Below, in pieces: positions 6,001 through 9,000 of a DNA stretch of 64,000 bases. The position numbers were made by a program. Positions within the stretch are counted from its first letter, which is position 1, and the number at the start of each line of letters is the position of its first letter. The DNA is from Escherichia coli (GTDB lineage Bacteria; Pseudomonadota; Gammaproteobacteria; Enterobacterales; Enterobacteriaceae), in assembly GCF_050320075.1 (NCBI RefSeq), contig NZ_CP190018.1. One strand, given 5' to 3'.

Positions 6001-9000
6001 GAGGAGGGGGCGGCGCACAGCCGCGCTGTCATGAACACGGAGCTGGGCTGGCTGTCAACGGAGTTCACCCGCAGTCTGCTGCTTTCCGCGCCGGCAGAAA
6101 CGGTGCCGGCGTGGATTTCCGCCGCGTATCAGTGGCTGTTTGTGGACAGTGGCATGCAGACATGGCTGCATGCACAGCAGGCGGGGACGGCGGCAGGCAG
6201 AAGCGTGTCTGAATTCAGCAGTGAGCTGAGTCAGTGGCTGGCTTATCATCTTCATGACTACCTGCTGGCGACGGTGTATGTGACGGTGGTGACGATGGTC
6301 AGGGTGGTTATTCTCGTCCTGTCCGTTCCGTTGTTTGTGATGGTGGTTCTGGTGGCCGTTGTGGAGGGGCTGGGGCGCCGTGATTTGCGGCGTTACGGCG
6401 CGGCTTATGAGTCCAGCTTTGTCTATCATCATGCAAAAAAATCAGTCAGACCGGCGATTTATGTCCCCTGCATTATTTACCTTTCCTGGCCCGGCGCGGT
6501 ATATCCGAACCTGCTGATATGGCCGGCGGCCATGCTGCTGGGACTGGCGGTTACCGTGACTGTGGCATCGTTCAAAAAATATCTCTGATTCATGCGCCGG
6601 ACACCCCGGTGCAAAACGTGTTTTGTGGCGGGGTGTCGGCAGACAAGCCACGTACTGACTGTCACAGCGCGTCAGCGTAAGAGCACCGGCAGCAAGGGAA
6701 TGACAACAATGGTGATGACGATGATGAGCAGGTTGATGCCCCTGATGACGTCATATAACCAGACAGGGCACTGTGGCTCTTCCCTGACGATATATAACAC
6801 AACAAAAAACCAGGTAAGACTGAACAGGGCCCGGTACGGAAGGGCGGTGAGGAGAAATTCCATGCTGATGTTTCCTCTTTACGGGGGGTCATTAGCGGGA
6901 AACTGTAGTGATGACCTGTTTCAGTAAACAGAAAAAATCATTAAAGATGGAATAAAATTGCGCCCCGGCGCGGGGATATGTTCCGGCATTCAGCCATGTC
7001 TGTTTTCCCTTAAAAATTTTCAGTTTTACAAATAGAGTTTATCGCTGACCGGCACACCTGCCTTCTTCATGCTGTACGCACCCACAGATTCTTAACGGAG
7101 GTGCGTATGTTTTCTCTTCCCGCATTTCCCCGGCGTGCCGCTGCCCTGGCAGGTACTACCGGGATGATGCTTCTTGCCATTGTGGCTGTGCCGGTTCAGG
7201 CCGCCGAAAAGGATGAGCTGGCAACGGCCATGCGCCAGCTTGACCAGGTACGGGCGGCGCTTGACCGTGCCAGAACGGCATCCCTTCAGGCCACGCCTCA
7301 TGACGGGCGTTATTTCTTCGACTACCCGCGCGCACAGGCTGACATTCAGACCATGCAGGCGGGTATTGACCGTTATCTCACGCCGTCCCGTGCCCAGCCC
7401 CGAAACGGCAGTGCCGTGACCGGTGAATACCGGCGGGAGCGTCCCTGATGGCGCTGACGTCGGCACAGATCACGGCCTTTAAGGTGGCATCCGGTGATGT
7501 GGATCTGAATGTGGTGCATCTGACATCGGTGGGAATGCTGGTTGCCGTTCTCTTTCTCTGGGCCGCCTGGGGACTGTCGGATGCATGGTCCGGGTGGCGT
7601 AACGGTGACGTCAGGGAATCTTCGTTTATCTGGTTTACCGTCCGTACCGCACTGCTGCTTGTCAGCAGTATCTGGATGTTTGCGGGCTGATTTTCCGTTT
7701 TCTTTAAGGAGACATATATGTTTAAAAACGCTTTTACTTTCCGTCACCTGCGTCTGGCGGGAATGGGGCTGATTGCTTTTCTGCTGGGCAGTCTGACCCC
7801 GGCACTGGCCGATTTGCCCAAAATTGAGCCGCCATCATCCGGTGGGGGAAGCGGACTTTTCGGACAAATCAAAGGCTATATCCAGGATGGCATTGTGCTG
7901 TTTGGTCTGGTACTTGCGGCGGCGGCCTTTGTGAAGGTGGCGGAGGCGGCCGTTACCACTTTTTCTGAGGTGCGTGACGGCAAGACGGGCTGGGGGCAGT
8001 TCGCAGCCATTATCGTGGTCGGGGTGGTGCTGCTGGTTGCGGTTATCTGGCTGCTCGGCAAATCCGCGAACATCATCCTGTGATCCACCAGGAGGGCTGT
8101 TTATGGAAACCATTCGTTTTCTGCCCGATCGTCTGAATGCTGAACCGACGGTGTTCCGGGGATTCACCACGCCTGAGCTGGGTCTGGCAGCCCTGAGCGG
8201 TGTCTTTCTCGGTCTGCTCTGGACACTGCCACTGATACCGCTGTTCGGCTGGGTGATTATTCCCACCGGTGCCCTGCTCACCCCGCTGCTTCTGGTCTGG
8301 ACCGGCGGCGTGTGGATCACCCGGCTGAAGCGGGGCAAACCGGATAACTGGCTCTGGCAGCGTATTGAAGAGAAAAAAGCGTCGCTGGGTGTAGGTCGCC
8401 CTGCGTTTATCAGAGTGGCACAGGGCTGGTCCCTGCGTCGTACCCGCGTCAGGGGAGGGAAAGGATGAGCCGTTTTCGTCATGCCCTGCAGGACAGGGAC
8501 CAGCATATTCTGACGCTTCGTGTGTTCAGTGGTGTGCTGGCGGGGCTGCTTCTGATGGTCACCCTCGGCTGGATGTCTGCACCTGACCGGCTGACCATCC
8601 ATAATCCACCTGATTTACGTTCCGGTAGTACCCGTCCGTGGTGGGAGGTTCCGCCTTCCACTGTCTATTCCTTTGCGTATTACATTTTCCAGCAACTGAA
8701 TGCCTGGCCGAAAAACGGTGAGGTGGATTATCCGGCAAAAATTCATGCCCTGTCGGCCTATCTGACACCGTCGTGCCGGGAAATCCTTGAAACGGATGCA
8801 CGACGCCGTAAGGACGCGGGGGAACTGCTGGATCGTGTTCGTGTGGTGTATGAGATCCCTGAGCATGGTTACGGCGGACGTTACAACCGTAATCCGGTCA
8901 CGGTGGAAGGCCGGGACAACTGGCAGGTTCGTCTCGACCTGGTGGTGGATGAGTATTTTCATGCTGAGCCGGTCAAACGGGCGCTGGTCCGCTATCCGAT

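What the first reader, a model, noticed from the sequence alone, without database searches (positions are those of the whole stretch)
6603..6645. Nested palindrome terminator between convergent operons inside the transfer region
A long near-perfect palindrome with an inner palindrome separates the traD operon from a convergent small membrane-protein gene, insulating the two. It could also be a protein-binding site.
Basis: seen in the sequence. Interest (0 to 1): 0.2.

Follow-up and report, generated by a model that had tools for sequence, protein, structure and literature searches.

The report
Conserved structured element ending ICE traD operon
The palindrome is real, and it is one arm of an ~80-base, strand-specific, two-hairpin element conserved across integrative conjugative elements of Enterobacterales; it most likely marks and protects the 3' end of the traD operon transcript, but it is not a standard terminator.

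Summary
The hairpin exists at 6596-6640: 19 pairs, one bulged G, one mismatch, -30.9 kcal/mol as plus-strand RNA. It starts 8 nt after the stop of the TIGR03747 gene, the last gene of the traD operon of an ICEclc/SPI-7-type ICE in E. coli. A convergent 63-aa membrane ORF ends at 6672.

It is not a canonical intrinsic terminator, because neither strand has a U-tract after the stem.

It is the first helix of a conserved module at 6588-6678: base GCYGGAC/GTCRGC, a variable middle, top CAAAAC/GTTTTG, linker AGACAAGCC, a short second helix, and tail GCGCGTCAG.
- A covariance model finds the module in 51 of 80 related loci from about 18 genera, in 107 E. coli genomes and on some plasmids.
- It is always on the plus strand, between the TIGR03747 and RAQPRD genes.
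- 16 of 25 pairs show compensatory changes.
- G.T pairs outnumber A.C 73 to 13, so the plus strand is the one that folds.
- The unpaired linker and tail are 95-96% identical, against 45% at third codon positions.
- Rfam has no match.

Best reading (about 0.5): a structured 3'-end, insulator and stabiliser element of the operon mRNA, with sequence-specific recognition. Main rival: a single-stranded-DNA site such as a priming site.

The parts
6588..6678 (+). Whole conserved module as matched by the covariance model: spacer, helix P1, linker, degenerate P2 region, tail.
   Evidence: Model R1 scores 63.7 bits, E 1.3e-13, the only significant match in the 64-kb window. It is homologous to 54 plus-strand matches in 51 of 80 related loci and to two plasmid loci.
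6596..6640 (+). It has a bulged G at 6600, a conserved base GCCGGAC/GTCGGC and a variable middle.
   Evidence: Fold at -30.9 kcal/mol. RNAalifold predicts the same helix independently, with 12 of 18 pairs showing compensatory changes. Across 47 sequences, 97.2% of P1 cells are paired.
6612..6625 (+). Conserved top of P1 (the 'inner palindrome'), CAAAAC-GT-GTTTTG.
   Evidence: 92% mean pairwise identity across relatives, against 46% for the stem middle. The motif occurs once in the window at 0 mismatches.
6641..6649 (+). Invariant unpaired linker AGACAAGCC, directly 3' of P1.
   Evidence: 95% mean pairwise identity, higher than second codon positions of the adjacent gene at 91%; alignment A2.
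6647..6670 (+). Region equivalent to helix P2. Most relatives have GCCGC-loop-GCGGC here. In this E. coli lineage it is a longer, poorly paired insert, so P2 is degenerate in the window copy.
   Evidence: P2 shows compensatory pairs in relatives (GCGGC/GCCGC in L009, L052, L081). Three non-standard pairs are flagged in the window copy.
6667..6675 (+). Invariant tail GCGCGTCAG, the end of the conserved module. Its TCA (6672-6674) is the stop codon of the minus-strand ORF.
   Evidence: 96% mean pairwise identity, and similarity to relatives ends right after it.
3729..6588 (+). Upstream transcription unit's last two genes: traD coupling protein (3729-5846) and the TIGR03747 membrane protein (5827-6588).
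   Evidence: NCBIfam TIGR03754 at 1087 bits and TIGR03747 at 308 bits; RefSeq annotation of the identical E. coli record.
6672..6863 (-). Convergent 63-aa hydrophobic ORF. It is variable cargo and matches no family.
   Evidence: ORF list, annotated as a hypothetical protein, no Pfam or NCBIfam match. Other genes take its place in relatives.
7107..7448 (+). RAQPRD-family gene, the first gene of the next T4SS operon. It marks the far side of the variable gap.
   Evidence: NCBIfam TIGR01690 at 101 bits. Its ICEclc homologue orf67231 has its own transfer-competence promoter.

Best explanation
The palindrome is helix P1 of a conserved, plus-strand-specific, two-helix element that forms in the 3' untranslated end of the traD-TIGR03747 (iceD4-orf68241-type) operon mRNA. 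Inferred mechanism: RNA polymerase leaving the TIGR03747 gene transcribes the module, and the ~20-bp P1 (plus P2 where intact) folds. There is no U-tract, so release is probably not classical intrinsic termination. It is more likely factor-dependent or downstream termination, followed by 3'-to-5' trimming back to the stem. The stem then defines and protects the transcript end and blocks transcriptional interference with whatever cargo gene lies beyond, on either strand. The invariant base, top, linker and tail imply that a specific factor, protein or RNase, also reads the element. That would make it a regulatory 3'-end element rather than a generic hairpin. Shown here: the structure, its strand, its conservation, its covariation and its position. 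Shown in a relative (ICEclc): the operon ends at this position. Inferred: RNA rather than DNA as the active form, and the stabiliser/insulator mechanism.
For: The structure is real and under selection: 95.2% of cells paired against 82.2% in shuffles, 16 of 25 pairs with changes on both sides, covariation score 0.429 against 0.167 (0 of 500 shuffles reach it), and slid controls 33-51% paired. RNAalifold gives the same helix de novo. The plus strand is the folding strand: G.T/T.G 73 against A.C/C.A 13, and the plus-strand RNA is 4.7 kcal/mol more stable. That is the sense strand of the operon. Position: 52 of 63 copies start within 18 nt of the stop codon of a plus-strand gene, nearly always TIGR03747. 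Plus-strand cargo genes inserted after TIGR03747 (L042, L046, L055, and the intron ORF in L031) are still followed by a module. In ICEclc the homologous mRNA ends downstream of orf68241, with a convergent orf67800 and a fresh promoter for the next operon. Relatives without the module carry textbook terminators at this site (ICEHin1056; L019, L021, L084). Only 1 of 50 module-bearing loci has a canonical terminator within 250 nt, so the module is the only obvious 3'-end structure there. Pantoea-type loci that gained a canonical terminator have mostly lost the module (L019, L021, L023, against L010, which keeps both), as expected for overlapping function.
Against: There is no U-tract on either strand, so termination itself is unproven. 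Conservation of the unpaired linker and tail at 95-96% is far more than a terminator or stabiliser needs and is not explained by this reading. L010 and two Pantoea plasmids keep an intact module about 150 nt downstream of a canonical terminator, so the module is retained where little operon transcript should reach it. In the two-copy loci (L028, L068) the distal copy lies behind a minus-strand gene. G.T pairs are also tolerated in DNA hairpins, so the strand test does not separate RNA from single-stranded DNA. No transcript data exist for this lineage.
Confidence: 0.5

Rival explanations
1. A single-stranded-DNA element. The plus strand folds when the ICE is single-stranded, either during rolling-circle replication of the excised element or after transfer. 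It would serve as a priming site or single-strand origin, or as another site read by an ICE or host protein. The mode would resemble RSF1010 ssiA/ssiB, where the hairpin base and the adjacent 3' single strand are recognised, or the sso of ICEBs1.
For: Folding is strand-specific. The hairpin base and the adjacent unpaired segment are invariant while the stem middle is free to vary. There is one good copy per element, and extra copies decay (L028, L055, L068). The module is retained downstream of a canonical terminator in L010. There is no U-tract. ICEclc-type elements do replicate from oriT through TraI after excision (PMC6561031), so a lagging-strand start site is needed somewhere. The ssi and sso comparisons rest on established knowledge, not on a test here.
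Against: The module is absent from many functional relatives: Pseudomonas pKLC102, ICEHin1056, Photorhabdus and others. Ordinary terminators replace it at the same spot. Its tight abutment to the stop codon of a co-oriented gene is natural for a 3' UTR and not required of a priming site. It has no conserved CTG primase start on the plus strand 3' of the stem, read directly from alignment A2. Tandem G.U/U.G pairs are the commonest state at two stem positions, which suits RNA better than DNA. Which strand is transferred is unknown.
Confidence: 0.2
2. A recombination or boundary site of the cargo hotspot. The hairpin would be the recognition site at which variable genes are exchanged between ICEs, loosely analogous to integron attC sites.
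For: Similarity between relatives ends exactly after the tail GCGCGTCAG, and different cargo classes start there. Cargo occurs on both sides of the module. Three loci carry two copies flanking a cargo gene. The hairpin has a bulged base and folds on one strand only, as attC does.
Against: No recombinase gene is linked to the site. The conserved boxes sit at the top and base of the stem and do not match the attC R''/R' cores RYYYAAC/GTTRRRY, read from alignment A2. Only 3 of 51 loci have two copies, and the extra copies are decaying. A sharp boundary is expected for any selected backbone element next to a hotspot. L002 and L003/L004 stay similar beyond the module.
Confidence: 0.07
3. An origin of transfer, or accessory relaxase site, for the MOBH relaxase TraI: a hairpin with a conserved 3' flank that carries the nick site.
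For: The architecture, an inverted repeat followed by an invariant single-stranded stretch, resembles many oriT cores; this rests on established knowledge of MOBF/MOBQ/MOBP origins. MOBH elements often have oriT far from the relaxase gene (bioRxiv 10.64898/2026.01.13.699239).
Against: A related ICE, ICEnahCSV86, has its oriT next to an SNF2 helicase gene with CCCTTT/GCCTTT repeats; that oriT is reported as homologous to the ICEclc oriT, and neither lies at the orf68241 gap (PMC9298801). The module has no such repeats. traI lies 48 kb away in the window. The module is missing from many transfer-proficient relatives, including pKLC102 and ICEHin1056, and terminators replace it there.
Confidence: 0.05
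4. A canonical bidirectional Rho-independent terminator and nothing more; or else a double-stranded palindromic operator.
For: It is a GC-rich stable stem between convergent genes.
Against: No U-tract or A-tract flanks it. Invariant unpaired segments extend 35 nt beyond the stem. For the operator reading: the stem middle keeps pairing rather than sequence, and wobble pairs are strand-asymmetric.
Confidence: 0.05

Closest known systems
Rho-independent (intrinsic) terminators at operon ends, including those at the same position in ICEHin1056 and some Pantoea/Erwinia ICEs
   Same: A stable GC-rich stem-loop immediately after the last stop codon of an operon, between convergent or tandem transcription units. 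It occupies the same site where relatives have textbook terminators.
   Different: No U-tract on either strand. The stem is about 20 bp, longer than usual. The base, top and flanking single-stranded segments are conserved across genera, and a second helix is present.
3'-end protective stem-loops of Rho-terminated or processed mRNAs (for example REP-type stabilisers) and retroregulatory hairpins such as lambda sib (established knowledge)
   Same: A hairpin without a U-tract just downstream of a coding region. It could stop 3' exonucleases or, at about 20 bp, be cut by RNase III. This is the likely way it works.
   Different: It is single-copy and element-specific, not a dispersed repeat: one copy in the window and 121 places in 107 E. 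coli genomes, all at the ICE site. Its conservation is sequence-specific. No processing data exist.
Single-strand initiation sites and single-strand origins (RSF1010 ssiA/ssiB, G4-type ssi, ICEBs1 sso1) (established knowledge)
   Same: A strand-specific fold with a conserved hairpin base and an adjacent conserved unpaired stretch, at one copy per element.
   Different: No priming test was possible. There is no conserved primase start triplet. The position is fixed at the end of a co-oriented gene. It is absent from many relatives.
ICEclc operon boundary orf68241 / orf67800 / P67231
   Same: The gene order, the convergent small gene and the mapped transcript end are the same.
   Different: The module itself was not found in the Pseudomonas-type relatives that were available (pKLC102 and other plasmids). 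The ICEclc sequence itself could not be examined.

Membership tests
Canonical intrinsic (Rho-independent) terminator | GC-rich stem-loop at the 3' end of a transcription unit | tested here: met
   19-pair stem at -30.9 kcal/mol, starting 8 nt after the TIGR03747 stop. The homologous ICEclc transcript ends at this position.
Canonical intrinsic (Rho-independent) terminator | Run of U (at least 4-5 of 8) starting within about 2 nt of the stem | tested here: not met
   The plus strand continues AGACAAGCCACG and the minus strand continues GCATGAATCAGAG. The terminator scan of 5500-7600 does not report it. The same holds in 49 of 50 relatives.
Bidirectional terminator | A-tract 5' and T-tract 3' of one stem, so that both strands see a U-tract | tested here: not met
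   The A and T runs lie inside the stem (CAAAAC/GTTTTG) and pair with each other. The flanks have no runs.
Dispersed extragenic palindromes (REP/BIME, ERIC, MITE) | Many copies per genome in unrelated intergenic sites | tested here: not met
   One copy in 64 kb. There are 121 places in 107 of 5426 E. coli genomes, at most 2 per genome; every locus examined has it in the ICE gap.
Any Rfam 15 family | Match to a curated covariance model | tested here: not met
   The only hit is sX8 at 18 bits against a gathering score of 50. It pairs different bases and is not found in six relatives.
oriT of ICEclc-type (MOBH) elements | Location and repeat motif of the described oriT of this family (next to the SNF2 helicase gene, with CCCTTT/GCCTTT repeats, as reported for ICEnahCSV86 and said to match ICEclc) | tested here: not met
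   The module lies between the TIGR03747 and RAQPRD genes, 48 kb from traI, and has no such repeats. The literature basis is.
oriT of ICEclc-type (MOBH) elements | Nicking by TraI and mobilisation in cis | not testable with these tools
   Needs mobilisation and nicking assays.
Integron attC site | R''/L'' and L'/R' boxes (RYYYAAC ... GTTRRRY) at the base of the hairpin, plus a linked IntI integrase | tested here: not met
   The base is GCTGGAC/GTCAGC and the AAAAC/GTTTT boxes are at the top. No integron integrase is nearby.
Single-strand origin / ssi priming site | Strand- and orientation-specific folded structure with conserved unpaired nucleotides | tested here: met
   G.T 73 against A.C 13. 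It is always on the plus strand. The linker and tail are 95-96% identical.
Single-strand origin / ssi priming site | Lies on the displaced or transferred strand and primes complementary-strand synthesis | not testable with these tools
   The transferred strand of this ICE lineage is unknown. A priming assay is needed.
Conserved structured RNA motif (candidate cis-acting 3' UTR element) | Covariation supporting helices in phylogenetically diverse sequences, with a fixed genomic context and strand | tested here: met
   16 of 25 pairs have double-sided changes, and slid controls are 33-51% paired against 95.2% observed. The sequences come from about 18 genera of Enterobacterales. The context is fixed.
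Conserved structured RNA motif (candidate cis-acting 3' UTR element) | The element is transcribed and its RNA form is the active one | not testable with these tools
   There is only indirect support: the ICEclc transcript map and an unlocated SPI-7 small RNA, StyR-381.

The most novel reading that the evidence does not exclude
The module is a previously undescribed, lineage-specific nucleic-acid signal of MPF_G/MOBH integrative conjugative elements that a dedicated ICE or host factor reads in single-stranded form. It could be a single-strand origin or priming site needed for replication and establishment of the transferred ICE. Or it could be a new structured RNA class, bound by a specific protein or RNase, that sets the level of coupling-protein (TraD) mRNA and so gates transfer competence.
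Probability: 0.25. Interest if true: 0.6.

Novelty: new variant of a known kind. Interest (0 to 1): 0.4.

Why it matters
This ICE family (ICEclc, PAPI-1, SPI-7, ICEEc2-like) spreads virulence and resistance genes; the copy in this window carries mcr-1. Its non-coding control signals are almost uncharted outside Pseudomonas.

This is an ~80-nt element more conserved than the neighbouring protein-coding positions and supported by covariation. It is unannotated in RefSeq, where no feature other than an overlapping hypothetical protein is listed over it in the 30 E. coli records shown (107 genomes carry it). It has no Rfam match.

It gives a concrete handle on how the coupling-protein operon is ended, stabilised or regulated. 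If the DNA-level reading is right, it would instead be a handle on how these ICEs prime second-strand synthesis. It also marks the fixed edge of a cargo hotspot where defence-like and membrane genes are swapped.

If it proves to be only a U-less stabilising hairpin, the finding is ordinary.

Tried and rejected
**Rfam.** The only hit over the element, sX8 (18 bits, E 0.16 on 181 nt), pairs different bases and is absent from six relatives. It was rejected as chance.

**Second copy in the ICE, for example near traI.** The covariance model with filters off found nothing above 14.7 bits other than the element's own reverse strand. Motif searches gave only chance-level hits.

**oriT.** The original ICEclc oriT paper is not held. 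Secondary sources place this family's oriT elsewhere.

**Wider phylogenetic reach.** There is no module in pKLC102, ICEHin1056, three other Pseudomonas plasmids or the phage collection. The single genome-contig scan returned Enterobacterales only, so absence elsewhere is not shown.

**Literature search by sequence string.** It returned only unrelated eukaryotic and viral primers.

**StyR-381.** This is a 73-nt SPI-7 small RNA of S. Typhi in the same orientation as both neighbouring genes. It could be this element, but neither its sequence nor its coordinates are available here, so the lead is left open.

**Other checks.**
- My first count of loci without the module used a 160-nt regex window and missed displaced copies. 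It was corrected with the covariance-model scan.
- A sigma-70 promoter driving the element as a separate small RNA was considered. No promoter-like site is found in 5500-7600. The TATAAT formed at the stop codon in L002-L006 is not conserved.
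Full report
**Context**

The window is an E. coli chromosome segment, 99.99% identical over its first 40 kb to strain YZLc1-3. 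It carries an integrative conjugative element (ICE) of the ICEclc/PAPI-1/SPI-7 type, inserted at tRNA-Phe. The finding lies in the conjugation gene block.
- traD runs 3729-5846 and the TIGR03747-family membrane gene 5827-6588, both on the plus strand.
- A 518-nt gap follows, holding a minus-strand 63-aa hydrophobic ORF at 6672-6863.
- The RAQPRD-family gene at 7107-7448 then opens the next operon.

**Observation**

The palindrome is real.
- The stem-loop spans 6596-6640, against the 6603-6645 that was reported. It has 19 pairs, a bulged G at 6600, one G/G mismatch and a CGTG loop.
- The 'inner palindrome' CAAAACGTGTTTTG (6612-6625) is the top of the same stem.
- As RNA, the plus strand folds at -30.9 kcal/mol (z -3.2) and the minus strand at -26.2. 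DNA parameters give -23.6 and -21.3.
- In a scan of all 50-nt windows on both strands it ranks about tenth, 4.3 sd below the mean; the top sites are shufflon repeats.

Thermodynamics alone makes it unusual but not unique.

**It is not a canonical terminator**

No T-run follows the stem on either strand. The consensus terminator scan finds three sites in 5500-7600, none of them here. Rfam gives only a sub-threshold, structurally inconsistent sX8 hit that is absent from relatives.

**Comparative evidence**

I collected three sets of relatives:
- diverged ICE relatives from E. coli genomes;
- 80 loci encoding TIGR03747 homologues from one genome per species (all Enterobacterales, 49-69% protein identity);
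- plasmid-borne relatives, including pKLC102 and ICEHin1056.

Folding the sequence after the stop codon showed the same architecture in most of them. The layout is:
- a base GCTGGAC ... GTCAGC with a bulged G;
- an 8-10-bp middle that differs between lineages but stays complementary;
- a top CAAAAC-loop-(G)TTTTG;
- an unpaired AGACAAGCC;
- a short GC-rich second helix (GCCGC-loop-GCGGC, or GCGGC/GCCGC in Proteus, Providencia and E. coli M11);
- a final GCGCGTCAG.

After that tail, all similarity stops.

On 47 distinct sequences:
- 95.2% of cells are paired, against 82.2% in column shuffles.
- 16 of 25 pairs change on both sides.
- The covariation score is 0.429 against 0.167 (0 of 500 shuffles reach it).
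- Sliding the partner columns drops pairing to 33-51%.
- RNAalifold predicts helix 1 on its own, with 12 of 18 pairs compensatory.

Mean pairwise identity by segment:

| Segment | Identity |
|---|---|
| Third codon positions of the adjacent gene | 45% |
| Immediate flanks | 30-37% |
| Stem middle | 46% |
| Stem base | 93% |
| Stem top | 92% |
| Linker | 95% |
| Tail | 96% |
| Second codon positions | 91% |

In the window copy the second helix is degenerate; this copy has among the lowest scores of the intact copies, at 63.7 bits.

**Strand and distribution**

Wobble pairs are asymmetric, with 73 G.T/T.G against 13 A.C/C.A. The plus strand, which is the sense strand of the traD operon, is therefore the one that folds. 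This also argues against a double-stranded operator.

A covariance model (R1) gave these results:
- Exactly one copy in the window.
- 54 plus-strand matches in 51 of the 80 loci.
- Copies on Citrobacter and Klebsiella plasmids, but none in pKLC102, ICEHin1056 or three other Pseudomonas plasmids.

BLAST finds the module in 107 of 5426 complete E. coli genomes, at 121 chromosomal places. In the 30 records listed, no RNA or regulatory feature is annotated over it. It also finds 18 plasmid records and no phage records.

In every locus examined the module lies between the TIGR03747 and RAQPRD genes.
- 52 of 63 copies begin within 18 nt of the stop codon of a plus-strand gene.
- 33 of 63 have a minus-strand ORF ending within 120 nt, and 23 within 20 nt. 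In the window that ORF's stop codon is the TCA of the tail.
- The gap is a cargo hotspot. Relatives carry FxLYD, DUF2913, DUF5710, Panacea-domain and other genes there.

**What it does**

In ICEclc the homologous 14.5-kb mRNA was mapped to end downstream of orf68241 (the TIGR03747 homologue). orf67800 is transcribed convergently, and the RAQPRD gene orf67231 has its own transfer-competence promoter (PMC2892462; PMC10018362).

ICEHin1056 and several Pantoea and Erwinia loci that lack the module have textbook stem-plus-T-run terminators at the same place. Only 1 of 50 module-bearing loci has such a terminator within 250 nt.

Taken together with the sense-strand folding and the position after the stop codon, the best reading is a structured 3'-end element of the operon mRNA. 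It would work as a stabiliser and insulator, and the invariant nucleotides suggest a specific factor also recognises it. Because there is no U-tract, polymerase release is probably factor-dependent or occurs downstream. That step is inferred, not shown.

**What this reading does not explain**
- The extreme conservation of the unpaired linker and tail.
- Retention of an intact module about 150 nt behind a canonical terminator in L010 and two Pantoea plasmids.
- Second copies behind minus-strand genes in L028 and L068.

These observations keep a DNA-level rival alive. Under it, the plus strand folds when the ICE is single-stranded and serves as a priming site or single-strand origin, or another protein site. 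ICEclc-type elements do replicate from oriT after excision. Arguing against this rival:
- the module's absence from many functional relatives;
- its replacement by terminators;
- the tandem G.U pairs that are the commonest state at two positions.

An oriT role is unlikely. A related ICE (ICEnahCSV86) has its oriT beside an SNF2 helicase gene with CCCTTT/GCCTTT repeats, reported as homologous to the ICEclc oriT, and traI is 48 kb away in the window.

An attC-like cassette site is also unlikely. There is no linked recombinase, the conserved boxes are in the wrong places, and two-copy arrays are few and decaying.

**Verdict**

I found no description of the element. It has no Rfam family and no annotation, and a full-text search with four substrings of the conserved linker region (both strands) found nothing relevant. 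One open lead is StyR-381, a 73-nt SPI-7 small RNA of S. Typhi whose sequence I could not obtain.

I rate it a new variant of a known kind, an operon-end stem-loop, with moderate interest.

Noticed in passing
window ~33363-38111: An ISApl1 - mcr-1.1 - pap2 - ISApl1 composite (Tn6330-like) sits inside the ICE next to a traF-like gene, so this chromosomal ICE carries colistin resistance. The two ISApl1 copies appear as 1070-nt cross-matches.
   Followed up: partly
window ~40500-42300: A shufflon next to pilV of a type IVb pilus operon holds the most stable hairpins of the whole window (-41.5 kcal/mol at 42274). One segment is inverted relative to E. coli YZLc1-3.
   Followed up: partly
window 6676-7106 and the same gap in L002-L009, L096, L097: The gap between the TIGR03747 and RAQPRD genes is a cargo hotspot. 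Relatives carry unrelated, mostly minus-strand genes there: a 63-aa membrane ORF, FxLYD, DUF2913, DUF5710, Panacea-domain and a 188-aa hypothetical.
   Followed up: partly
window 7013-7081: A conserved non-coding block lies upstream of the RAQPRD gene. It matches even an E. coli genome where nothing else of the 701-nt query matched (H55, 81% over 69 nt). It is probably the counterpart of the ICEclc transfer-competence promoter P67231.
   Followed up: no
L031:2879-5300 (Xenorhabdus lircayensis); L077:3260-3428 (Serratia marcescens): A group II intron (558-aa reverse-transcriptase-like ORF; the sequence starts GTGCGAC right after the TIGR03747 stop codon) is inserted between the stop codon and the module in L031. 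L077 has the same GTGCGAC start but only about 170 nt, perhaps a remnant.
   Followed up: no
L092, L095 (pKLC102-type plasmids) versus window 53760-56886: In pKLC102-type elements a UvrD-type helicase gene follows the TIGR03747 gene directly. In the window the helicase and traI genes lie 47 kb away, next to the integrase gene and tRNA-Phe. The module therefore sits at a rearrangement breakpoint between the two ICE lineages.
   Followed up: no
L028:3251-3339 and 4018-4103; L068:3267-3346 and 4421-4500; L055:3166-3253 and 4712-4800: Three Xenorhabdus loci carry two module copies flanking a cargo gene. One copy of each pair scores clearly lower (down to 34 bits) and has substitutions in otherwise invariant positions.
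   Followed up: partly
S. Typhi SPI-7 (literature, not in the window): StyR-381 is a 73-nt, constitutively expressed small RNA in SPI-7, oriented like both neighbouring genes and restricted to serovars that carry SPI-7 (PMC2943607).
   Followed up: partly
window 994 (+), 2314 (+), 24270 (-): Other 50-nt windows fold as well as or better than the finding (-33.3, -31.6 and -31.7 kcal/mol). They were not examined.
   Followed up: no
window 23845-23972 and 26641-26769; 26660-26908: A ~129-nt sequence occurs twice within the ICE (97% identity). A 249-nt stretch matches a site about 7 kb upstream of the window start in the reference genome. Their nature is unknown.
   Followed up: no
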